In this document: positions 4,336-57,160 of the stretch, one piece after another
Layout: the number at the start of each line of letters is the position of its first letter
Position numbering within the stretch: the first letter of the stretch is position 1
Assembly (NCBI GenBank): GCA_964556365.1
Contig: CAZKVT010000006.1
Span: forward strand, 25,114 to 89,113
Source: an uncultured bacterium
GTDB taxonomy: Bacteria; Hydrothermota; UBA3072
DNA length: 64,000 bases
Direction of reading: 5' to 3'
Notes under the pieces: generated by a model
Seen by the model: the letters and a program-made list of their open reading frames with translations, nothing else
The model's database searches: none
What the model was told of the DNA's origin: nothing
Position numbers and translations under genes: made by a program

Positions 4336-4770
4336 CTATAACTTCTTTTGACAATCTTTACAATAGCCCTTGATGCCAAATCTAAACCCTGCAGGTTTAA
4401 AACCGTATTTTTTGCACGCCTTTCTCTTAATATCTTCCAACTTTTCATTTTCGAATTCTATTATTTTACCGCATCCCATACAAATTATATGACCATGTGA
4501 CCGATGCCCATAAATGTGCTCATAGCATACTCTCTCCCCACACCTCATCGCCTCCTGAACGAGACCACTTTCTACAAGTAAAGGCAAAGTACGATAAATT
4601 GTAGCCCGCGAAATATTCTCTCCCTTATCATGAAAAACCTGAAAAAGAGCCTCAGCGTCAAAATGGTCATGTCTCGAAAAAATTTCCTTCAGAATCTGTT
4701 CTCTTTCCGAGGTGAGTTTTAACCCCCTTTCAACCAAATATTTTTTAAATATTTCTTTTTCTTTTTTCAT
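4336..4770 (-). CDS. fur: Fur family transcriptional regulator
   Basis: 'LKLTSEREQIL', 'HDHFDAE', 'ISRATIYRTL', 'HGHIICMGCG', C-terminal CKDC. Confidence 0.9.
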   Translation of the reverse strand: MKKEKEIFKKYLVERGLKLTSEREQILKEIFSRHDHFDAEALFQVFHDKGENISRATIYRTLPLLVESGLVQEAMRCGERVCYEHIYGHRSHGHIICMGCGKIIEFENEKLEDIKRKACKKYGFKPAGFRFGIKGYCKDCQKKL

Positions 4771-7884: not shown

Positions 7885-7990
7885 AACCACAGAGAACACA
7901 GAAATTTTTAATGTTGTTTTTACCAAATCCCAACCCCCAAATCCAAAATCCCAAAATATGGACGCGGATAAACGCAGATTTCAAGGATTT
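7885..7990. repeat. Intergenic repeat mosaic containing a 34-nt element also present at 52548-52581
   Basis: ccaaatcccaacccccaaatccaaaatcccaaaa (7923-7956) vs ccaaatcccaacccctaaatccaaaatcctaaaa, 2 mismatches; flanked by ccacagagaacacaga and acgcggataaacgcagat units. Confidence 0.65.
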
Positions 7991-43715: not shown

Positions 43716-46166
43716 TCAGAGGACTTCGGCAACAGAACGGGAGGAGAAAAAAATTAAATTATTGTCTTCTCTGGAAACAACAATTTTGTTTCCCTTTTCC
43801 CATTTCCCTTTTAAGAAACCTTCTGCTAAATTATCCTCTAAATGCCTCTGAATTAATCTTTTTAGTGGACGGGCTCCGTATTCGGGATCAAAGCCTTTCT
43901 CTATAAGAAAATCCTTTGCTTCTCCGGTAAGAGAAATCTCAAACCCTTTTTCCTCGACTCGCTCCCTTACATCCCGGAAAAATATATCCACTATCGAAGA
44001 CATTACCTCTATATCGAGAGATTTGAAAACAACACTCTCATCAATACGATTTAAAAATTCAGGACTAAATCTTTCTTTGATTTCCTCGAGAAGATATGAT
44101 TTCATCTCCTCGTATTTAACACCCTTACCAGGTTTTTTAAAACCAACATGAGAACCACGCATTATTTCTCTTGTTCCTATATTAGACGTCATAATAATAA
44201 CGGTATTTTGAAAAGAAACTTTTCTTCCGTATGCGTCAGTAAGAATCCCTTCATCAAAAACCTGAAGAAGAATATTATAAACATCAGGATGAGATTTTTC
44301 TATCTCATCTAAAAGAATAACAGAATAAGGTCTCCTTCTGACAGTTTCAGTTAATACCCCACCTTCATCATATCCAACATATCCGGGAGGAGCACCTATC
44401 AGTTTAGAGACGTTAAATCTCTCCATATATTCACTCATATCTATTCTAACCAGAGCATCTTCTGTGTTAAAAAGGAATTTAGCAAGCTGTTTCGCCAACT
44501 CTGTCTTACCAACTCCCGAGGGGCCAAGAAACAGAAAAGCTCCTAAAGGTCTTTTCATATCACGAAGACCAGCCCTGCTTCTCCGGATCGCACGAGAGAC
44601 CACTTTAATCGCTTCATCCTGTCCCACCAGTCTCCTTCTAATTTCATCTTCCATTGAAAGAAGCCGCTCTGTCTCTTCTTCTTTAAGCCTTTTAAGAGGA
44701 ACTCCCGTCCAAAGGGAAATAACTTCTCTTATATCATCTTCAGAAACGGCCACTTGCTTAAGACCCTCGTATTTTCCCCAATCTTCCAAGCTTTTCTCGA
44801 GTTTACCTTCGATTTCATCCCTTCTGTCACGCAGTTCAATTGCAATTTCATACTTTCCTTCTTCCCTTACTTTTATTAATTCCTCTTTTACCTCTCGCAA
44901 TTCTCCCTCGAGATTTACAATTTCATCGGGAACTTTAGTTTCCCTTAACCTGACTTTGGCTCCTGTTTCATCCAGGACATCGATTGCCTTATCAGGAAGA
45001 TTTCTATCTGCTATATATTGACAGGAAAGTTTTACAGCTACTTTAATTACTTCATCGGTATAAGTAACCTTATGAAAATCCTCATATTTACGTTTAATAC
45101 CGTTTAAAATGTCTATTGTTTCATTTACTGTAGGAGGATCTATAAGAATCATTTGCAATCTTCTTTCAAGAGCGCCATCTTTCTCTATATATTTCCTGTA
45201 TTCTTCAGTAGTAGTAGCTCCAATTGTTTGAATTTCACCCCTGGCAAGAATTGGTTTTAGCATATTAGAAGCATCGATCGCTCCTTCGGCAGCTCCGGCA
45301 CCTACAATTGTATGCATTTCATCGATAAAAAGAATATTATCGGAATCTTTCAATGATTCTAAGATCTGTTTTAACCTTTTTTCAAACTGTCCGCGGTATT
45401 TTGTTCCCGCTATAATAGAAGCGAGATCCATAGAAAGAATCCTCTTCCCCTGAAGCATCTTAGGAATTGAACCTGCAACAATCCTCTGAGCTAAACCCTC
45501 TACTATTGCGGTCTTACCAACACCTGGTTCACCAACAAGCACAGGATTATTCTTTTTTCTTCGACACAAAGTTTGGATTATCCTTTCCATCTCGTTTTCC
45601 CTACCTATTATGGGATCGATTTTCCCTTTCTTCGCGAGTTCGGTAAGGTCCCTCGTATAATAATCAAGCGTTCTGTCGACAGATTTTTTCGGTTTATCTG
45701 TACTTTGCTCACTTACTTTTTCTTTATTGAAAATCTCGAGAAGCATCTGTTTTGCTAAATAATAATCAATTTCCTCGGGTTTTAATATTTCAACGAAAGT
45801 TACTTCATTAGATTTCAGTAAAGATAAAAGTAGATGTTCCGTACCTATTATTTGTCTGCCAAGGACTAAGGCTTCTTCTTTTGCCTGCTCAATGATATTA
45901 ATTGAATCCCCCGATAAACCTATCGGTTCTTTTATAATTGAAACTCCACTAATACCCCTTACAAGCCTTAGAATACGATTCTCGAGCGCCTCAATATCGA
46001 CTCCAGCTTCTTCAATTATGGTAACCGCGATATTGTTTCCGTGTTTTAGTATCGCGAGTAAAAGAATAACCGGAGTAACTTCACTCAAACCAACTTCAAT
46101 GCTCAGATCTTTTGATATTTTCACAACATCTATAAGCTTTTTCGTAAATCTTTCATCCATAAACAT
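43716..46166 (-). CDS. clpC: ATP-dependent Clp protease ATP-binding subunit ClpC
   Basis: Clp N domain, two AAA+ modules (GEPGVGKT/IDEMH; GPSGVGKT/LDEIE), UVR middle domain, ClpP-docking VGF loop. Confidence 0.95.
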   Translation of the reverse strand: MFMDERFTKKLIDVVKISKDLSIEVGLSEVTPVILLLAILKHGNNIAVTIIEEAGVDIEALENRILRLVRGISGVSIIKEPIGLSGDSINIIEQAKEEALVLGRQIIGTEHLLLSLLKSNEVTFVEILKPEEIDYYLAKQMLLEIFNKEKVSEQSTDKPKKSVDRTLDYYTRDLTELAKKGKIDPIIGRENEMERIIQTLCRRKKNNPVLVGEPGVGKTAIVEGLAQRIVAGSIPKMLQGKRILSMDLASIIAGTKYRGQFEKRLKQILESLKDSDNILFIDEMHTIVGAGAAEGAIDASNMLKPILARGEIQTIGATTTEEYRKYIEKDGALERRLQMILIDPPTVNETIDILNGIKRKYEDFHKVTYTDEVIKVAVKLSCQYIADRNLPDKAIDVLDETGAKVRLRETKVPDEIVNLEGELREVKEELIKVREEGKYEIAIELRDRRDEIEGKLEKSLEDWGKYEGLKQVAVSEDDIREVISLWTGVPLKRLKEEETERLLSMEDEIRRRLVGQDEAIKVVSRAIRRSRAGLRDMKRPLGAFLFLGPSGVGKTELAKQLAKFLFNTEDALVRIDMSEYMERFNVSKLIGAPPGYVGYDEGGVLTETVRRRPYSVILLDEIEKSHPDVYNILLQVFDEGILTDAYGRKVSFQNTVIIMTSNIGTREIMRGSHVGFKKPGKGVKYEEMKSYLLEEIKERFSPEFLNRIDESVVFKSLDIEVMSSIVDIFFRDVRERVEEKGFEISLTGEAKDFLIEKGFDPEYGARPLKRLIQRHLEDNLAEGFLKGKWEKGNKIVVSREDNNLIFFSSRSVAEVL

Positions 46167-46170
46167 AGGA

Positions 46171-47211
46171 TTATCCTCCTAAATAATTCCTTATTATCTT
46201 TGCTCTGAGAATATTTTCCTCTTTTTCATTACTAACATCTTCATTATTAATCCTTATGTGTCCGGGAAGCACCTGGAAAAGCCATTTATTCAAATCCATT
46301 ATATTTACATCCTTGATAATACCCAAACTTGAACCAAGTCTCAGGGCTGATGTCAAGTTAAGAAAGTCTGTAACGGACAGAATCCTTGCGTTTTTTAAAA
46401 TCCCGTAGGATCTCCAAATTTTATCTTCCGTTTCATAACCAACTTTTTGAGTCAAGTATTCCCTGCTGTTAATTTCATCCTTAATTATGCTTTTAATTTT
46501 ATTTTTAAATAATTTTAATATTTCTTCTTCGGAAACACCAAGGGTAAACTTGCTGCTTATTTTAAAATAACTACCCTCAACACTCTCCCCCATATTAAAA
46601 ACACCTTCGATCGAAAAAAGTGACTCCTCGAGATCATCGATGATATCGACAAATTTACCGGTAATAACAAGAGCGGGGAGATGCGCTACAGCAGAAACAA
46701 TCATACCTGTTCCGACTTTATCTGTCGACGAAGTCAAAAAACCCAATTCATTATCATAAGCAAAACCAAATTCTTCATTCAATTCATCATCCAGTCCATC
46801 ACATTGAACAAACGCTTCTTTAGCAGACAATTCTGAACATATAGAAGAAATTTCAAGGTGTTCATCAGAGTTCAAAACAAGCATATTGCTCTGAGAATCG
46901 TTTAAAGCCAAACCAATAAACTCACAATTTTCATATTCTTTTCTTGATATAAAATGTCTTTCTACGAAAAATCGTTTGTCTCTATCTTCTAAATCTTTTA
47001 AAGTAATATAATTATCAAAATGAGGAAGCGTGGAAACACCTTCAAACAGTAAATTCAAAATTTGTGCTTTCTCTTTTTCGGTGTTTTTTTTATTAAACTT
47101 ATAACCTCCAAGATTACGATATAAAGAAACCTTGGAAAACAAAACCATTTCAGAATAAGGACCGGCTTCTTCCAACCATACAGGAAAATGTTCCACAAGT
47201 GAATTAATCAT
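46171..47211 (-). CDS. mcsB: McsB (protein arginine kinase) homolog with degenerate active site
   Basis: Position between mcsA and clpC; conserved 'GP.S..VL', 'HLPALV', 'TLG.SEEEI', 'EDKIWRSYGILKNAR', but catalytic NEED and CP-T-N motifs are substituted. Confidence 0.88.
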   Translation of the reverse strand: MINSLVEHFPVWLEEAGPYSEMVLFSKVSLYRNLGGYKFNKKNTEKEKAQILNLLFEGVSTLPHFDNYITLKDLEDRDKRFFVERHFISRKEYENCEFIGLALNDSQSNMLVLNSDEHLEISSICSELSAKEAFVQCDGLDDELNEEFGFAYDNELGFLTSSTDKVGTGMIVSAVAHLPALVITGKFVDIIDDLEESLFSIEGVFNMGESVEGSYFKISSKFTLGVSEEEILKLFKNKIKSIIKDEINSREYLTQKVGYETEDKIWRSYGILKNARILSVTDFLNLTSALRLGSSLGIIKDVNIMDLNKWLFQVLPGHIRINNEDVSNEKEENILRAKIIRNYLGG

Positions 47212-47671
47212 TTTTGCTCCTTATGGTTTTCAACTCTTTTTTCCTTTCCTCAATCCTATCTCTCAATTCAACAGCCTCTTCAAACTTTTCTTCTTCAACA
47301 AAATTTTCCAACTTTTGTTTCAATTCTAAAATCTCTTTTTTTACAGAAAGGACCTTGGTATTCGTAACCGGCTCTTTACCCTTATGTACAAGATCCAACT
47401 GTGAATCTTTTAGATAAATCTGAATCTGATCATAAAAAGTCTTATAACAATTAACACAACCTAATTGCTTAGAATTCTTGTACTCACTAAATGTCAAACC
47501 GCAGGTGGGACAAACTTTGTTCTTGCTTATACTCGAATCATCTTTATTTTTAACATCTACGCCCTTTTTCCTGGCACATTCTTCACAGATATTTATCTCC
47601 CGGACATTATCTGAGTATACTTCATAATATTTATATTTAGCACCATCAGCACCGCATAAATCACATTTCAT
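47204..47671 (-). CDS. mcsA: McsA (CxxC zinc-binding protein with UvrB/C motif)
   Basis: CDLC, CEEC, CPTC, GCVNC; 'HKGKEP'; 'EEKFEEAVELRDRI'. Confidence 0.92.
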   Translation of the reverse strand: MKCDLCGADGAKYKYYEVYSDNVREINICEECARKKGVDVKNKDDSSISKNKVCPTCGLTFSEYKNSKQLGCVNCYKTFYDQIQIYLKDSQLDLVHKGKEPVTNTKVLSVKKEILELKQKLENFVEEEKFEEAVELRDRIEERKKELKTIRSKND

Positions 47672-51317: not shown

Positions 51318-52121
51318 TTATTCTCCGAGTTCCAGGCTATCCAAAAAATCCTTAATCCCCACCAAATAAACATCTTTAGACTCAGATATACAATTATTAT
51401 GCAATCCCCGGATTTTTAGAAATGTCTTAGGTTCCAATGCCTCGGCAAACAATTTTTCCCCATGATGAAAGGGTATCAAATCGTCATGTTCGCTATGTAC
51501 AATCAATTTTGGTATTTTTATGTTTTTTATTCTTTTAATAGACTCAAAACGATTCGATATTGAAAATTTCGGTAGATAATAACCAAGTATATCGTAACCC
51601 AAATCCCTTGCAGATATAAAAGTACTATCGATTATCATCCCCCTTAAACCCCCAACAAAACTTGCAAGAAAAATAGCAACAGCCCCGCCTAAAGACCTAC
51701 CAAAAACAATCATATCTTCATCTTTAAATCCTTTATCTTTAAGATAATCGTATGCTCCCAAAACGTCTAAGTACAAACCCTTTTCACTTGGAACACCGTT
51801 ACTTCTGCCGTAACCTCTATAATCAAAAATAAACACATTATATCCAAGTAAATTTAAATCTTTAATAATATCCACTCTCGATGAAATATTCCCGAAATTC
51901 CCATGACAGAAAAGGATAACTCTATGTAAAGAACCTTCTATAAACCAACCATTAAGTAACACCTGATCCCGCGAGGTAAAATTTATATCTTCGAATTGAA
52001 CATCTAAATCACTTGGAAAAGAAAATAATTCTTCCCGGGGTCTATAAACTTTAATATGTTCGTAAAACTTAAATAATAGATAGGAAAAAAGAAGAAAAAA
52101 AAGAAAAAATACTAAAAACAT
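51318..52121 (-). CDS. Alpha/beta hydrolase (ABHD13/BEM46-like)
   Basis: 'FCHGNFGN', 'DYRGYG.S.G.PSE', 'GRSLGG', 'HSEHDDLIP', 'GLHN'. Confidence 0.85.
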   Translation of the reverse strand: MFLVFFLFFLLFSYLLFKFYEHIKVYRPREELFSFPSDLDVQFEDINFTSRDQVLLNGWFIEGSLHRVILFCHGNFGNISSRVDIIKDLNLLGYNVFIFDYRGYGRSNGVPSEKGLYLDVLGAYDYLKDKGFKDEDMIVFGRSLGGAVAIFLASFVGGLRGMIIDSTFISARDLGYDILGYYLPKFSISNRFESIKRIKNIKIPKLIVHSEHDDLIPFHHGEKLFAEALEPKTFLKIRGLHNNCISESKDVYLVGIKDFLDSLELGE

Positions 52122-52145
52122 TAAAAGGTGTTAAGAAAATTTCTA

Positions 52146-52397
52146 CTAATCGTTTTTTTTCGCAGTTTTATCTTTACTACTCTCTGATTTCTTCGTCGCA
52201 GAATTAGCACCATCGGACTTCTTATAATCGGTATGATAAAAACCATTACCTTTAAATATAATACCAACACCCGCACCAATCAACTTTCTCAATTTCCCGC
52301 CACAACGCGGACACTTTTTCAAAGGTTCGTCTTTAATTCCCTGGAATTTTTCAAATCTATATTTACATTTTAAGCACTCATATTCATAAGTCGGCAT
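52146..52397 (-). CDS. FmdB family zinc-ribbon protein
   Basis: 'MPTYEYECLKC', 'CPRCGG', 'FKGNGFYHTD'; promoter TTGACA-16-TATATT at 52416-52443. Confidence 0.88.
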   Translation of the reverse strand: MPTYEYECLKCKYRFEKFQGIKDEPLKKCPRCGGKLRKLIGAGVGIIFKGNGFYHTDYKKSDGANSATKKSESSKDKTAKKND

Positions 52398-52472
52398 AAA
52401 TCCTCCGTTTGACGAAATATAGCTACTAAAAACTGCTTGTCAAGCCCATTTACCCTACCCCAAAACAATAAT

Positions 52473-52616
52473 CTCACACAGAGTGCGCAAAGAACACAAA
52501 GAATTAATCGTTAGGTCGTTAGAAAGTTAGGGGGTTAGGAGAGTTTCCCAAATCCCAACCCCTAAATCCAAAATCCTAAAAAACCATTTAACTATTTCTC
52601 AATTTGACCATTTGAC
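52473..52616. repeat. Intergenic repeat mosaic (second copy of the 34-nt element)
   Basis: ctcacacagag is the reverse complement of 7555-7565; aagaacacaaagaa is also at 4866-4879; gttag x4; 34-nt element at 52548-52581; atttgaccatttgac. Confidence 0.6.
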
Positions 52617-52710
52617 TTAAATTCGAAGAATTTATTCATCGGAATAGCTTGACATAAAAAAATATTCTATTAAACTTAAAGGTTAATTGGGTTTATTTGG
52701 AGGATAAAAA

Positions 52711-53043
52711 ATGTCTATTCGCAATTCAAAATGGTCTAAAAGAGAAAAAAAGATAGCTCGTAAAGCATTTGACAAAGCTTATCAAAGAGAAATGGAAATA
52801 ATAAAAAAGGAAATATTAAATCGTTTAAATAAAATGAAGTCTGTTGATCAAATATGGGATTTACATGATTTTTTAAGTGCTAAAAGAAACAATATGGCTG
52901 ATAAATACGATTATAGATATTCTATGTTAATAACTGTTTTTGGCAGGTTATTAGCTGAAGGATATATATCAGAAGAAGATTTATGTGGACTTGATGATGA
53001 GAAACTAACTTCAATCAAAAATATATCAAGATTCAAGAAATAA
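52711..53043 (+). CDS. Fluorescence recovery protein (FRP)-like protein
   Basis: 'WSKREK.IARKAFDKAYQRE', 'QIWDLHDFLSAKR', 'KYDYRYS.LI.VF..LL.EG', matching cyanobacterial FRP; promoter TTGACA-16-TAAACT at 52649-52676. Confidence 0.8.
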   Translation: MSIRNSKWSKREKKIARKAFDKAYQREMEIIKKEILNRLNKMKSVDQIWDLHDFLSAKRNNMADKYDYRYSMLITVFGRLLAEGYISEEDLCGLDDEKLTSIKNISRFKK

Positions 53044-53052
53044 AGGAAGAAT

Positions 53053-53334
53053 ATGGATATATTAGAAAAAGAAATACAAAAAATATTAATTGAATGGGAC
53101 CCACTTGGAGATGACAAATGGGAAATTAAAGATTTAGATAATTATAAAATCGAAGCAATGGATATATCTTCCGACTTATATATTATGAATATCAATTCGG
53201 AAAAATCTTGCATAAGATTAGTACGAAATACTATAAGTCAAGCATTTGATATAGATGTACCTACCGAAGAAGCAGAGAAATATGGTAAAACAATATGGAA
53301 AATCTTTTCTAAGAATAAGAAAATTAAAAAATAG
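53053..53334 (+). CDS. Small hypothetical protein, DUF1871/YugE-like
   Basis: 'ILIEWDPLG...DNY..EA..I' pattern; SD AAGGA. Confidence 0.5.
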   Translation: MDILEKEIQKILIEWDPLGDDKWEIKDLDNYKIEAMDISSDLYIMNINSEKSCIRLVRNTISQAFDIDVPTEEAEKYGKTIWKIFSKNKKIKK

Positions 53335-53367
53335 AAACTGTCAACATTTTAACTTCGGACTAATGGC

Positions 53368-54138
53368 ATGAACAAAAAAGATATCAAGAAAATTATTAAA
53401 AATCCAGCCTTTATTCCAGGTATTTACAATTATTGCGATTACTGGTGCGAGCGTTGCCCTTTCACTTCCCGTTGCATGAATTTCGCATTAAGCGAGAAAC
53501 AGTTTCCAGATAATGAATCTCGTGACATAAACAACAAGCTTTTTTGGCAAAAACTATCTGAAATTCTTCAATTAACGCTTGATATGCTGGAAGAAACTTC
53601 AATGAAAAAGGGCATTGACTTGAATTCTCTCGATCTTAAGACCGAAACCGAAGAAAAAATGACAAGAAAGGAAAACATAGAGGAAGATAAATGCTGCACC
53701 TCCGCGAAAGCGTACGGGGAAATGGTCGAAAACTGGTTCAATTCATCCAGTCAACTATTTAACCAAAAGCAGGATGAGCTGAATCTAAAAGCGGAACTCG
53801 AAATACCCAATGGTAATCCTATCGAAGAAGCAAACGGCATCAAAGACGCAATAGACATCATTCGCTGGTATCAATACCAAATATATAGCAAGTTAATAAG
53901 AGCAGTAAAAGGAGATTCAAACGAACTACAGGAAGACAGTGATGGTTCAGCAAAAGTTGCATTAATTGCAATAAACCGCTCCATAGCCGCATGGGGAGAA
54001 ATACATCGTCACTTCCCGGAATGTGAGGATGAAACACTTGACCTTCTTGTACATCTTGATCGATTACGCATAAAAGTTGAAAAGATATGCCCAAAAGCAA
54101 GAGGATTTATACGCCCGGGATTCGACGAAAACCACTAA
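53368..54138 (+). CDS. Conserved hypothetical protein with an N-terminal Cys cluster
   Basis: 'IYNYCDYWCERCPFTSRC'; 'DSDGSAKVAL'; C-terminal 'FIRPGFDE'. Confidence 0.7.
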   Translation: MNKKDIKKIIKNPAFIPGIYNYCDYWCERCPFTSRCMNFALSEKQFPDNESRDINNKLFWQKLSEILQLTLDMLEETSMKKGIDLNSLDLKTETEEKMTRKENIEEDKCCTSAKAYGEMVENWFNSSSQLFNQKQDELNLKAELEIPNGNPIEEANGIKDAIDIIRWYQYQIYSKLIRAVKGDSNELQEDSDGSAKVALIAINRSIAAWGEIHRHFPECEDETLDLLVHLDRLRIKVEKICPKARGFIRPGFDENH

Positions 54139-54158
54139 CCGGAAGGAGAAAAAAACAA

Positions 54159-54956
54159 ATGAAAAATTGGTCCATAATTATATTACTATTACCCATTTTA
54201 CTTTTAGCTAAAGCCTCCCCTGAAACTGAAGTTATCATATTCGGAATCGTCCATCAAGCAACGGAAAACTTTGACGGAGAAGACATGTTAAAGATATTAG
54301 ATCGGGTGAAACCTGACGTAATTTTATTTGAACACCCTATTTCCTGGCCTGTTGAAAGGTTTTCTGAAATCGTAAAAAAAAACAAAAATCCAACTCTCGA
54401 GACAATAATAGTAAAAAAATATCTGGATGAAAACCCATCAGTACTTCTTAGATATTATGATATCGAGAACCGAAACAAATATTACATTGAAACCCGGTAC
54501 TTCGAACAAGAGAAAGCCTTTAACGAAAAATTAGAGAATTTAATCAGCAAAAGCGAATCAGATGATTCCGTCTCGCTTCCGGCGGAGCAGATCACCATGT
54601 TATTAAATTTCGACAATCTCAATCATTCTCTTTTAAAGGAGTATCCCAGAGTAATCAACTCGGCAGCAGCCGATTCCATATGCGCTATAAATGTCAGATA
54701 TCTTCTCTATAGTAGTCTTAAGTTTACAGAAACCGTTCCAGATTTGAAGCAATTTAAAGAATATATCATCTCACGGCAAGAGTTCTGGGATAAAAGGAAT
54801 GAAGCTATGGCGAAAAATATTATTAACTATGTAGAAGAATTTCAAGGTAAGAGAATTGTTGTCACAAATGGATTTGAGCATCGCTATTACTTACGTATGG
54901 AACTACAACAATCACAGAAGCAAAACTTTATATTAAAAGAATACTGGGAATACTAA
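54159..54956 (+). CDS. Secreted hypothetical protein, possibly TraB/GumN-like metalloenzyme fold
   Basis: Signal peptide from ATG 54159 (SD GGAG); 'G..H', 'KPDVILFE', 'RN..M..NI', 'G.EH'. Confidence 0.5.
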   Translation: MKNWSIIILLLPILLLAKASPETEVIIFGIVHQATENFDGEDMLKILDRVKPDVILFEHPISWPVERFSEIVKKNKNPTLETIIVKKYLDENPSVLLRYYDIENRNKYYIETRYFEQEKAFNEKLENLISKSESDDSVSLPAEQITMLLNFDNLNHSLLKEYPRVINSAAADSICAINVRYLLYSSLKFTETVPDLKQFKEYIISRQEFWDKRNEAMAKNIINYVEEFQGKRIVVTNGFEHRYYLRMELQQSQKQNFILKEYWEY

Positions 54957-54988
54957 TTAAAGAAACAATTTATCAAGGGAGGTAAAAG

Positions 54989-56527
54989 TTGAAATTCATA
55001 TTAAAGAGCTTTTTTATATTCTTTGTAATATTGCTATGTATGTGTTCTTCACCGTCTTTAGAAACCAATGAAAGTTATGAACCGGTAACGCCAAACGCGT
55101 CGAGGGAAGCTAAAGCTCTTCTGGAATTTTTATACAGCATTTCAGGAAAGTACACTCTAACAGGACAACATAACTATCCAAACATAAAAGACAGGAATAC
55201 GCGTTTCGCAGCAAAATATATAGGTAAAACACCAGCAGTTTTTAGTACGGACATGGGCTTTGCAAAGGCTGGAGATACGGATTCTTACCTGGCAAGACCG
55301 GACATTGTCGAAGAATGTATAAGACAGCATAAACTTGGGTCTATCATCACTATATGCTGGCACGCGGTACCGCCTACCACCGATGAACCGGTTACTTTCA
55401 GAGGTCTGCCTGGAGCAAAACCGGACTCTCTGGCAAGTGTTCAGGGTCAATTGACAGACCAACAATTCAAAGATATCCTAACACCGGAAACAAAACTTTA
55501 TAAACACTGGTGCAAACAGGTCGATAATATCGCGTTTTACCTCAAAAAACTCCAAAAAGCCGGAGTACCGATACTATGGAGACCATATCATGAAATGAAT
55601 GGTGACTGGTTCTGGTGGGGAGGTCGTCATGGAGAATACAGCACAAAAGAACTTTATATCCAATTATTCGATAGGCTTGTAAACCATCACAAACTAAATA
55701 ATCTAATCTGGGTCTGGAACGTCGATAGACCAAGTAGACCCGGAATGGAGTTCTCTAACTTCTATCCGGGAAACGAATACCTCGATGTTCTATCTCTGGA
55801 TGTTTATAGAAGTGATTTCAACCAGTCCTACTACGATGGTTTGTTAATTTTATCAAAAGGCAAACCACTTGTACTAGGAGAAGTCGGCAATCCTCCATCA
55901 CTTGAAATTCTAGAGCAACAACCAAAATGGTGTTTGTATGTCATCTGGGCGGGAATGGTCCGGAATACGTTAAAAAAACAACACAAAAAACTGGTAAATC
56001 ATCCGCGAATACTGAGTTTAGAAGATTCCGCCTATATAGAAGCCATCAATCCCTTCAGGAGTACATGCGGATTAGCTACATTAAACTTAAAAGAGAAACA
56101 ACCACATGATTTTTCGGGAAAATGGATTTTTAACGAAGAAAAAAGCATTCTGGATAATTACGGGGCAAGTCAGATACCCTATAAGTTGAATGTTATCCAA
56201 AAAGGAAATAACATTACTATAGAAAGAACTCGAATTTTAGAATATGCTGATGATGAAATTACGAAAGAGAAGATGACTCTCGATGGTAAAGAATATGAAT
56301 CGGAATTCTGGAATTCCTCCCGTATAACGACAGCAAACTGGTCGAAAAACGGCAAAACTTTAATATTTGAATCTAAAATCGAATTTAATATGGGCGGGAA
56401 GGCTACTGAAATGGTATCAAATGAAATCTGGAGTTTAATGGAATATGGAGAAATCCTATCGATTAAGCAGTCTTCCACTTCACCCTGGGGAAAAAGAAAA
56501 ATGACAATGATTTACGATAAACGGTAA
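54989..56527 (+). CDS. GH26 beta-mannanase-like lipoprotein with an extra C-terminal beta-rich domain
   Basis: Acid/base 'WRPYHEMNGDWFWWG', 'FYPG..Y.DV..LDVY', nucleophile 'LGEVG'; lipobox LLCMC. Confidence 0.85.
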   Translation: MKFILKSFFIFFVILLCMCSSPSLETNESYEPVTPNASREAKALLEFLYSISGKYTLTGQHNYPNIKDRNTRFAAKYIGKTPAVFSTDMGFAKAGDTDSYLARPDIVEECIRQHKLGSIITICWHAVPPTTDEPVTFRGLPGAKPDSLASVQGQLTDQQFKDILTPETKLYKHWCKQVDNIAFYLKKLQKAGVPILWRPYHEMNGDWFWWGGRHGEYSTKELYIQLFDRLVNHHKLNNLIWVWNVDRPSRPGMEFSNFYPGNEYLDVLSLDVYRSDFNQSYYDGLLILSKGKPLVLGEVGNPPSLEILEQQPKWCLYVIWAGMVRNTLKKQHKKLVNHPRILSLEDSAYIEAINPFRSTCGLATLNLKEKQPHDFSGKWIFNEEKSILDNYGASQIPYKLNVIQKGNNITIERTRILEYADDEITKEKMTLDGKEYESEFWNSSRITTANWSKNGKTLIFESKIEFNMGGKATEMVSNEIWSLMEYGEILSIKQSSTSPWGKRKMTMIYDKR

Positions 56528-56565
56528 TTATATACAAAAACAGTCTTTTTTATTAGCTTAATATT

Positions 56566-57114
56566 ATGAACAAAAAACCCCTCGTAGGAATAAGTACTTG
56601 TTTACTCGGAGAAAAGGTAAGGTATGATGGTGGGCATAAACTTAACCATTATCTTCGTGATACATTTGGAAAATACGTGGAATATCTACCAGTTTGTCCC
56701 GAAGTAGAATTCGGCATGAGTGTTCCCAGAGAAGCGATTAATCTTTTCGAAAACAAAAGAAAGATTCGACTTATTACAAAACAAACAAATATAGACATAA
56801 CTGACAAAATGAATTCATGGATAAAAAAACGTTTGAAAGATTTATCAAATAAAAAACTCTGCGGTTTTATTTTTAAATCAAAATCTCCAAGCTGTGGATT
56901 ATTTGACGCGGAAGTTCACAGAAAAAAGGTCATAGAAGATAACGGTACAGGATTATTTGCTAAAGCCTTCACAGAATCATTTCCCCTGATTCCTGTGGTT
57001 GATGAAAAGCGTCTAAATGATCCAAAACATAGAGAAAATTTTATAGAACAAATATTTCTTATATACAACAAACCAATAAGCCAAAAAATAAAATCTGAAA
57101 CTGAAAATCTATGA
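56566..57114 (+). CDS. DUF523 (TudS/2-thiouracil desulfidase-like) domain protein
   Basis: 'GISTCLLG..VRYDG', 'VCPEVE.G...PRE', 'KSKSPSCG'. Confidence 0.8.
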   Translation: MNKKPLVGISTCLLGEKVRYDGGHKLNHYLRDTFGKYVEYLPVCPEVEFGMSVPREAINLFENKRKIRLITKQTNIDITDKMNSWIKKRLKDLSNKKLCGFIFKSKSPSCGLFDAEVHRKKVIEDNGTGLFAKAFTESFPLIPVVDEKRLNDPKHRENFIEQIFLIYNKPISQKIKSETENL

Positions 57115-57160
57115 ACTAAAATCTATTGACATAAAAAAAAATTCTATTATTTTGAAAGAA

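What the first reader, a model, noticed from the sequence alone, without database searches (positions are those of the whole stretch)
52711..53043. Close homolog of the cyanobacterial Fluorescence Recovery Protein with no photosynthesis genes in view
Seen: a 110-aa ORF with its own promoter and SD carries 'KAYQRE', 'WDLHDFLSAKR' and 'KYD...LI.VF..LL.EG', which follow Synechocystis FRP nearly residue for residue as I recall it. The Trp/His/Asp/Arg dimer-interface cluster and the Phe/Lys used to contact OCP are included. Known: FRP resets the orange carotenoid protein; FRP-like proteins of unknown function have been reported in non-photosynthetic Proteobacteria. Inference: this copy has an unknown native client and may bear on where FRP came from.
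Basis: partly seen in the sequence, partly recalled or inferred. Interest (0 to 1): 0.7.

Follow-up and report, generated by a model that had tools for sequence, protein, structure and literature searches.

The report
FRP-like protein in a non-phototrophic bacterium
The ORF is a real member of the FRP-like (FRPL) family, which has been described outside cyanobacteria, in a salt-marsh bacterium whose nearest named relatives are WOR-3; it lacks the residues cyanobacterial FRP uses to touch its carotenoid-protein partner, and it sits in a small strain-variable gene cassette.

Summary
Window 52711..53043 (+) encodes a 110-aa protein that matches Pfam PF18032 (FRP) end to end (E 8e-28). It is 40-42% identical to solved FRPs. 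Its AlphaFold model (pLDDT 92) superposes on FRP and FRPL crystal structures (TM 0.85-0.91).

It is not a cyanobacterial-type FRP:
- The core W9/W50/H53/D54/R60 cluster is kept, but the three OCP-contact states F76/K102/L106 are T/S/I. Every cyanobacterial FRP compared has F/K/[L,M].
- It falls outside the cyanobacterial clade (179/200 bootstraps).
- No OCP is nearby. OCP lies within 6 kb of FRP in 51/56 cyanobacterial loci and 0/24 non-cyanobacterial ones.

The contig comes from a salt-marsh metagenome. Its nearest named relatives are candidate division WOR-3 MAGs. FRPLs outside cyanobacteria were described by Steube et al. 2023, and the family is large (1067 clusters at 50% identity), so this is a new member of a known kind.

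New here:
- FRPL and a 93-aa ORF form an AT-rich (26% GC) two-gene cassette between a conserved promoter and a 4-Cys gene.
- The cassette is present or absent among close relatives.
- FRPL is 98-99% identical in nucleotides between lineages whose flanks are about 80% identical.
- No partner gene is conserved across phyla.

The function remains unknown. A dimeric protein-binding adaptor is the best guess.

The parts
52649..52676 (+). Promoter-like site TTGACA-16 nt-TAAACT that heads the FRPL-orf93-orf256 gene string
   Evidence: 10 of 12 matches. It is conserved in L193, L197 and L199. In L193, which lacks FRPL, the same promoter sits directly in front of the orf256 homolog. A 24-nt near-copy lies at 57126-57149.
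52699..52704 (+). Shine-Dalgarno GGAGGA, 6 nt upstream of the ATG
   Evidence: Read directly from the sequence. Conserved in L197 and L199.
52711..53043 (+). FRP-like protein (FRPL), 110 aa, PF18032; 26.4% GC
   Evidence: It is the only FRP-like ORF in the window.
53053..53334 (+). orf93, a 93-aa protein of unknown family (26.2% GC). It accompanies FRPL in every related contig that carries FRPL.
   Evidence: No hit in Pfam, NCBIfam, PADLOC or PHROGs. Absent next to FRPLs of other phyla. The single-sequence AF2 model has pLDDT 62 and is unusable.
53368..54138 (+). orf256, a conserved uncharacterised protein with an N-terminal CX3CX2CX5C motif (C23, C27, C30, C36); 38.8% GC
   Evidence: Homologs in 59 metagenome loci. 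Conserved columns. No Pfam or PDB sequence match. Occurs with and without FRPL upstream.
54159..54956 (+). orf265, a predicted secreted or membrane-anchored protein of unknown family (an alternative upstream start at 54087 gives 289 aa)
   Evidence: The hydrophobic N-terminus MKNWSIIILLLPILLLAKA is read from the translation. Present in L197, L198 and L253; absent in L196 and L199.
55040..56527 (+). GH26 glycoside hydrolase, the last gene of the segment missing from the closest genome
   Evidence: PF02156.
52461..56562 (.). 4.1-kb strain-variable segment (FRPL, orf93, orf256, orf265, GH26), replaced by about 300 bp in the closest GTDB genome
   Evidence: L136 (CAYWUC010000218) aligns at 97.7% up to 52460 and resumes at 56563 at 88.9%. 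No flanking repeats.
52681..53367 (+). FRPL-orf93 two-gene cassette (about 0.7 kb, 26% GC) that is present or absent between the promoter and orf256. Its ends are approximate.
   Evidence: L193 against the window and L199. GC. Identity peak.

Best explanation
The ORF encodes an FRP-like protein (FRPL). FRPLs are the non-cyanobacterial branch of the PF18032 family.

Shown here:
- It has the FRP fold: a long helical hairpin plus a small helical head.
- It keeps the family core (W9, W50, H53, D54, R60 in Synechocystis numbering, and the KYDYRYS motif).
- It lacks the three head-domain states F76/K102/L106 that cyanobacterial FRPs use on OCP.
- It lies outside the cyanobacterial FRP clade.
- No OCP gene is near it.
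- It belongs to a salt-marsh bacterium whose nearest named relatives are WOR-3 MAGs.
- The gene is first in a tightly spaced string (promoter, FRPL, orf93, orf256). FRPL and orf93 form an AT-rich cassette that is present or absent among close relatives. FRPL itself is almost identical between lineages whose flanks are about 20% diverged, which indicates recent recombinational exchange.

Inferred:
- Like FRP and P. borbori FRPL, it is a cytoplasmic, non-enzymatic homodimer. It would work by binding another protein and changing that client's conformation or assembly state.
- The client is not OCP. It is probably lineage-specific, because no partner gene is conserved across phyla.
- In this lineage orf93 is the only candidate partner suggested by linkage.
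For: Family membership: Pfam FRP E 8e-28 over the full length; PDB FRP and FRPL hits at 1e-24 to 6e-18.

Fold: AF2 pLDDT 92.1 and pTM 0.80. Foldseek gives 5tz0 TM 0.85/0.91 at rmsd 1.5, and 8ag8 TM 0.87/0.91 at rmsd 1.3.

Signature sites: the window has WWHDR|T,S,I. All 58 cyanobacterial-type sequences have WWH[DN]R|F,K,[L/M]. Non-cyanobacterial sequences vary at these three sites. Only 7 of the 150 best family representatives carry F-K-[L/M].

Tree: cyanobacteria are monophyletic in 179/200 bootstraps, with the window outside them.

OCP adjacency: 51/56 cyanobacterial loci, 0/24 non-cyanobacterial loci, and none in the window or in about 380 kb of loci held from contigs matching the window's genes.

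Taxonomy: gene order znr83-hydrolase-FtsX-ABC-McsA-McsB-ClpC is shared at 70-86% aa with a WOR-3 MAG.

Literature: FRPL genomes lack OCP, HCP and CTDH. The FCB-group, Pseudomonas and Methylocaldum FRPLs do not accelerate OCP1 recovery. F76/K102/L106 are the contact states (PMC10172135).

Cassette:
- Closest genome lacks 52461-56562.
- L193 has the promoter fused to orf256, while L199 is 95.4% identical over the 4.08 kb left flank and carries FRPL-orf93.
- GC is 26% against 36% for the window.
- FRPL is 98.8-99.4% nt identical against 81-93% for orf256. Against L253, 150-nt windows reach 98-99% on FRPL and 63-86% over most of the other genes of the segment.
Against: No experiment or expression data exist; no RNA run holds the stretch. 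Dimerisation and protein binding are inferred from homologs, not tested.

Only the contigs held here could be searched for OCP, not the whole genome of the organism.

The orf93 link holds only within this lineage. orf93 and orf256 are absent beside 80 other FRP(L) loci and beside the closest FRPL at 59% identity.

The NJ tree on about 107 columns resolves the FRPL groups poorly (support 24/200 for the FCB-type group).

The recent-exchange inference rests on four related contigs.
Confidence: 0.8

Rival explanations
1. It is a working FRP that resets an orange carotenoid protein encoded elsewhere in the same genome.
For: 40-42% identity to FRPs of known function. The W50/H53/D54/R60 cluster is kept. 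One Desulfobacteraceae FRPL does accelerate OCP1 in vitro (PMC10172135).
Against: F76/K102/L106 are T/S/I. It lies outside the cyanobacterial clade. No OCP is in the window or in about 380 kb of held loci matching the window's genes, whereas OCP is adjacent in 51/56 cyanobacterial loci. The host groups with WOR-3 MAGs. A 181-MAG WOR-3 study mentions neither phototrophy nor carotenoids.
Confidence: 0.02
2. FRPL is a conflict-system component: an immunity- or antitoxin-like binder that neutralises a toxin domain. FRPL-orf93 would be a small mobile protective cassette inside a variable array of small co-directional genes.
For: FRP-domain fusions occur to DUF4279 and to PRiA4_ORF3. DUF4279 is the FdL-Imm5 immunity family (PMC9424270). 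The PRiA4_ORF3 fusion lies 2.2 kb from an RHS fragment.

The cassette is AT-rich, strain-variable and recently exchanged. The tight same-strand array of small unannotated genes resembles polyimmunity loci as described in PMC3482391. PemK, VapBC and HNH genes lie beside some FRPLs.
Against: No toxin gene is adjacent here. None of FRPL, orf93 or orf256 hits PADLOC, and none of the four cassette proteins hits a Pfam Imm family. Immediate neighbours of ten other FRPLs are ferritin, ArsR, TetR, SIMPL and lipoproteins, not Imm or Tox families. Only single fusion examples were seen. P. borbori FRPL is chromosomal and responds to starvation.
Confidence: 0.12
3. It is a decaying or non-functional remnant carried along by horizontal transfer.
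For: Low GC, patchy presence, and no conserved partner.
Against: The ORF is intact and full length. All family-invariant residues are present. The model is confident. The promoter and SD are conserved. The same allele is kept in several lineages and in contigs assembled separately from several samples.
Confidence: 0.04

Closest known systems
FRPL (fluorescence recovery-like protein), e.g. Pseudomonas borbori PbFRPL, PDB 8AG8 (Steube et al. 2023, PMC10172135)
   Same: Same Pfam family and fold (TM 0.87/0.91, rmsd 1.3 A, 37% identity). Stand-alone protein of about 110 aa. Host is not a cyanobacterium and no OCP is nearby. OCP-contact triad is incomplete. Function is unknown.
   Different: The window protein keeps H53/D54/R60, where PbFRPL has Q/E/Q. 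It scores higher against cyanobacterial FRPs than against PbFRPL. Its host is a bacterium related to WOR-3 MAGs, which are not among the four source organisms Steube et al. assayed. Here the gene is part of a strain-variable two-gene cassette.
Cyanobacterial FRP (Synechocystis Slr1964, PDB 4JDX; Fremyella FRP, PDB 5TZ0)
   Same: 40-42% identity over the full length. Same fold. Conserved W9, W50, H53, D54, R60 and the KAYQRE and LHDFLSAKR motifs.
   Different: F76/K102/L106 are T/S/I. The protein lies outside the cyanobacterial clade. No adjacent OCP, against 51/56 cyanobacterial loci.
FCB-group and Desulfobacterales FRPLs (Ignavibacteriaceae, Melioribacteraceae, KSB1 and Bacteroidetes MAGs; P0002, P0003, P0026)
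   Same: These are the closest sequences at 50-59% identity, in the same weakly supported tree group. Steube et al. tested an FCB-group 'Chlorobi sp.' FRPL and found it inactive on OCP1.
   Different: Their gene neighbourhoods share nothing with the window. Some carry F at position 76 or K at 102; the window has neither.

Membership tests
PF18032 FRP/FRPL superfamily | Full-length match to the family HMM above the curated cutoff | tested here: met
   97.2 bits against a cutoff of 26.6, profile positions 1-98 of 99, E 8e-28.
PF18032 FRP/FRPL superfamily | All-helical fold: long antiparallel hairpin plus a C-terminal helical head | tested here: met
   AF2 pLDDT 92.1 with helices 10-41, 47-65, 70-83, 88-91 and 96-109. 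Foldseek TM 0.85-0.91 to 5tz0, 8ag8 and 4jdx.
PF18032 FRP/FRPL superfamily | Family-invariant residues (W9, W50, R60, KYDYRYS motif) | tested here: met
   W8, W49, R59 and K65-S71 are present. These columns are invariant or nearly so in 98 sequences.
PF18032 FRP/FRPL superfamily | Homodimer in solution | not testable with these tools
   Inferred from the crystal structures of homologs only.
Cyanobacterial FRP sensu stricto (OCP1 regulator) | OCP-contact states F76, K102, L106 together | tested here: not met
   The window has T75, S101 and I105. All 58 cyanobacterial-type sequences have F, K, [L/M]. The states are defined in PMC10172135.
Cyanobacterial FRP sensu stricto (OCP1 regulator) | Placement inside the cyanobacterial FRP clade | tested here: not met
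   In an NJ tree of 92 sequences the cyanobacterial clade has 179/200 support and excludes the window.
Cyanobacterial FRP sensu stricto (OCP1 regulator) | OCP gene adjacent or in the same genome | tested here: not met
   No OCP by tblastn in the window or in about 380 kb of held loci matching the window's genes. OCP lies within 6 kb in 51/56 cyanobacterial loci. The whole genome was not available.
Cyanobacterial FRP sensu stricto (OCP1 regulator) | Accelerates OCP red-to-orange recovery | not testable with these tools
   Needs a biochemical assay.
Polymorphic-toxin immunity proteins / polyimmunity loci | Adjacent toxin gene, or recognised Imm families in the same array | tested here: not met
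   No toxin or Imm family among the window neighbours or the FRPL neighbours scanned individually (the 86-neighbour scan printed only the first 25 of 82 families). The only links are rare fusions to DUF4279 and PRiA4_ORF3.

The most novel reading that the evidence does not exclude
FRPL-orf93 is a mobile two-gene module whose FRPL allele has recently swept by recombination through several co-existing salt-marsh lineages related to WOR-3 MAGs. On this reading, FRPLs in general are conflict-related binders (immunity- or antitoxin-like) rather than housekeeping stress proteins. FRP's role in cyanobacteria would then be an exaptation of a toxin- or partner-neutralising scaffold.
Probability: 0.1. 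Interest if true: 0.65.

Novelty: new member of a known kind. Interest (0 to 1): 0.3.

Why it matters
FRPLs are the pool from which cyanobacteria are thought to have recruited FRP, and their native function is unknown (PMC10172135).

This copy does not change that picture. It gives three usable leads:
- The family is far larger and taxonomically broader than published. It has about 1067 clusters at 50% identity, and hits include FCB candidate phyla, Bacillota, Chloroflexota and methanogen MAGs.
- No partner gene is conserved across phyla. The client is therefore either lineage-specific or encoded elsewhere in the genome.
- In this population FRPL behaves as an accessory gene that has been exchanged recently, which argues against a housekeeping role.

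The natural FRPL-plus and FRPL-minus strains offer a comparison for function.

Tried and rejected
- **Partner via window neighbours.** tblastn and phmmer of orf93, orf256 and orf265 against 80 FRP(L) loci found nothing. An HMM of 42 orf256 homologs hit only the window. The genes next to the 59%-identical FRPL P0002 are unrelated.
- **Partner via neighbour clustering.** Only an upstream lipoprotein is shared, by four Ignavibacteria-group loci (three Ignavibacteriaceae, one Chlorobiota MAG); I read this as synteny rather than partnership. A Pfam scan of 86 neighbours found no family shared across loci.
- **Known Imm or Tox families beside FRPLs.** None found.
- **Libraries for FRPL and neighbours.** NCBIfam, PADLOC and PHROGs gave no informative hits.
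- **Mobile-element marks.** No flanking direct or inverted repeats and no tRNA.
- **Expression.** No RNA run holds the stretch.
- The orf256 profile against PDB found nothing. The single-sequence model of orf93 has pLDDT 62 and is unusable.
- **Taxonomy.** TopA alone gave only unnamed MAGs. The hydrolase locus gave the WOR-3 and TA06 names.

Full report
**Observation.** Window 52711..53043 (+) is an intact ATG-to-TAA ORF of 110 aa. GGAGGA lies 6 nt upstream of the ATG. A TTGACA-16-TAAACT site lies at 52649-52676.

The protein matches Pfam PF18032 (FRP) over the whole profile (E 8e-28, 97 bits, cutoff 26.6). It also matches the solved FRPs 5TZ0 (1.3e-24) and 4JDX (2.5e-20), and the P. borbori FRP-like protein 8AG8 (5.8e-18). 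An AlphaFold2 model built on 98 homologs is confident (pLDDT 92.1, pTM 0.80). It superposes on 5TZ0, 8AG8 and 4JDX with TM 0.79-0.91 and rmsd 1.3-2.1 A, at 37-42% identity. It is the only FRP-like ORF in the window. So the homology is real and far beyond chance, but '40% identical' describes it better than 'nearly residue for residue'.

**Which kind of FRP.** Window residue i corresponds to Synechocystis residue i+1. W9, W50, H53, D54 and R60 are all kept. The three head-domain states that Steube et al. identified as the OCP1 contacts (F76, K102, L106; PMC10172135) are Thr75, Ser101 and Ile105.

In an alignment of 92 sequences, all 58 cyanobacterial-type FRPs have F, K, [L/M] at these sites. 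Non-cyanobacterial homologs vary there. A neighbour-joining tree rooted on PbFRPL recovers the cyanobacterial FRPs as a clade in 179 of 200 bootstraps. The window protein lies outside it. Its sister is an unnamed metagenomic protein of 59% identity, within a weakly supported group of Ignavibacteria, Bacteroidetes and KSB1 FRPLs.

The gene upstream of a Calothrix FRP is OCP (Carot_N + NTF2). Using it as a query, OCP lies within 6 kb of FRP in 51 of 56 cyanobacterial loci and in 0 of 24 non-cyanobacterial loci. It is absent from the window and from about 380 kb of held loci matching the window's genes. The protein is therefore an FRPL, not an OCP-regulating FRP.

**Organism and surroundings.** The window is part of a 71-kb contig from a salt-marsh metagenome. 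It carries ordinary chromosomal genes: RND efflux, fur, queCDE, nadE, topA, rph, bactofilin, parAB, clpC-mcsAB, grpE-dnaK and polysaccharide genes. None relates to photosynthesis.

The closest named ones are a 'candidate division WOR-3' MAG and a TA06 MAG. The WOR-3 MAG shares the gene order znr83-hydrolase-FtsX-ABC-McsA-McsB-ClpC at 70-86% aa. WOR-3 is NCBI phylum Caldifarciminota. A 181-MAG study describes fermentative, hydrogenotrophic or aerobic lifestyles and never mentions phototrophy or carotenoids.

**How common the family is.** A profile search of 1.84 billion representatives finds 1067 clusters at E<=1e-3 and 634 at E<=1e-10. Only 7 of the best 150 carry the cyanobacterial F-K-[L/M] signature.

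Among GTDB species representatives, homologs occur in MAGs of KSB1, Ignavibacteriota, Bacteroidota, Thermodesulfobacteriota, Bacillota, Anaerolineae, Methanotrichaceae and Methanosarcina.

Steube et al. reported FRPLs in proteobacteria, acidobacteria and an FCB-group 'Chlorobi sp.'. They solved PbFRPL. They showed that FRPL genomes lack OCP, HCP and CTDH, and that only a Desulfobacteraceae FRPL accelerates OCP1 recovery. They found that PbFRPL rises and moves to the poles on starvation. No later paper on FRPL function was found. The finding is a new member of a known kind.

**Local anatomy.** FRPL is followed after 10 nt by orf93, after 33 nt by orf256, and after 20 nt by orf265. orf256 belongs to a conserved family of about 260 aa with a CX3CX2CX5C motif. 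The closest GTDB genome (L136) is 97.7% identical up to 52460 and resumes at 56563. It lacks FRPL, orf93, orf256, orf265 and a GH26 gene. No repeats flank the segment.

In related contigs with a different left flank (rbfA, DHH, trkA, trkH), the same promoter precedes either FRPL-orf93-orf256 (L196, L197, L199, L253) or orf256 directly (L193). L199 and L193 are 95.4% identical over the 4.08-kb left flank and differ by the FRPL-orf93 indel.

FRPL and orf93 have 26% GC. orf256 has 39% and the window as a whole 36%.

FRPL is 98.8-99.4% identical in nucleotides between the window and L196, L197 and L199, while orf256 is 81-93%. Against L253, a separate GTDB species representative, 150-nt windows reach 98-99% on FRPL, 89-91% on orf93 and 63-86% in the windows downstream of orf93. 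Three of the four FRPL differences are non-synonymous. I read this as recent recombinational exchange of the FRPL allele, not codon-level purifying selection. It rests on only a handful of contigs.

**Search for a partner.** None of orf93, orf256 or orf265 occurs beside any of 80 other FRP(L) loci, or beside the closest FRPL. Neighbour clustering and a Pfam scan of 86 flanking proteins gave no shared family. Flanking genes are lipoproteins, ferritin, ArsR, TetR, SIMPL, one SnoaL-like protein, PemK and VapBC.

Rare fusions join the FRP domain to PRiA4_ORF3, DUF4279 (an immunity family, PMC9424270), an HsdS fragment and, weakly, CcbP. These fusions, together with the variable small-gene array, allow a conflict-system reading. 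No toxin or Imm family was found nearby, so I give it about 0.1.

**Mechanism.** The fold, the family core and the missing OCP contacts are shown. It is inferred that the protein is a cytoplasmic homodimeric adaptor acting by protein binding, as FRP does on the OCP C-terminal domain. Its client would be unknown and probably lineage-specific. orf93 is the only linked candidate.

**What could not be done.** The whole genome could not be searched for OCP. No RNA data exist. The orf93 model is unusable.

**Verdict.** Interest is low to moderate.

Noticed in passing
window 53368-54138 (+): orf256 belongs to a conserved, unannotated family of about 260 aa with a near-invariant N-terminal motif I-x-G-I-Y-N-Y-C-D-Y-W-C-x-R-C-x5-C. 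The four Cys suggest an Fe-S or zinc site. Homologs were found in 59 metagenome loci. There is no Pfam, NCBIfam or PDB sequence match.
   Followed up: partly
L087 (Methanosarcina MAG) 425-757; L069 (Methanotrichaceae MAG, 217-kb contig) 4346-4696: FRP-family genes occur in methanogen MAGs. In L087 the gene lies next to ack-pta. In L069 it lies just downstream of a VapB antitoxin gene and a second small ORF (read by eye as PIN/VapC-like). Archaeal FRPLs do not come up in the passages of the 2023 FRPL paper that I read.
   Followed up: partly
P0150 (L250 4001-5161), P0264 (L252 1001-1870), P0183, P0139: Rare fusion proteins join the FRP domain to PRiA4_ORF3, DUF4279 (FdL-Imm5 immunity family), a type I R-M specificity (HsdS) fragment, or a weak CcbP match. 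The PRiA4_ORF3 fusion lies 2.2 kb from an RHS-repeat fragment.
   Followed up: partly
window 52548-52581 and 7923-7956; also 52649-52672 and 57126-57149: A 34-nt intergenic motif (CCAAATCCCAACCCC[T/C]AAATCCAAAATCC...) recurs in two intergenic regions. Related stretches sit at the variable junctions of L136 and L193. The 24-nt promoter core of the FRPL operon recurs upstream of the epimerase gene.
   Followed up: no
L035 4769-5257: One Ignavibacteriaceae FRPL is followed 155 nt downstream by a SnoaL/DUF4440 (NTF2-fold) protein, the same fold as the OCP C-terminal domain that FRP binds. It is a single case out of 24 loci and may be chance.
   Followed up: no
window 43716-47671 (-): A clpC-mcsB-mcsA (arginine kinase and activator) cluster, best known from Firmicutes, is conserved in synteny across the relatives of this lineage, including the WOR-3 MAG (L137-L143).
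   Followed up: no
window 56563-57066 versus 51513-52460: The two flanks of the variable segment differ in identity to the closest genome L136: 88.9% on the right against 97.7% on the left. L136 diverges completely beyond window 57066. The whole znr83-to-grpE interval is therefore mosaic among relatives.
   Followed up: partly
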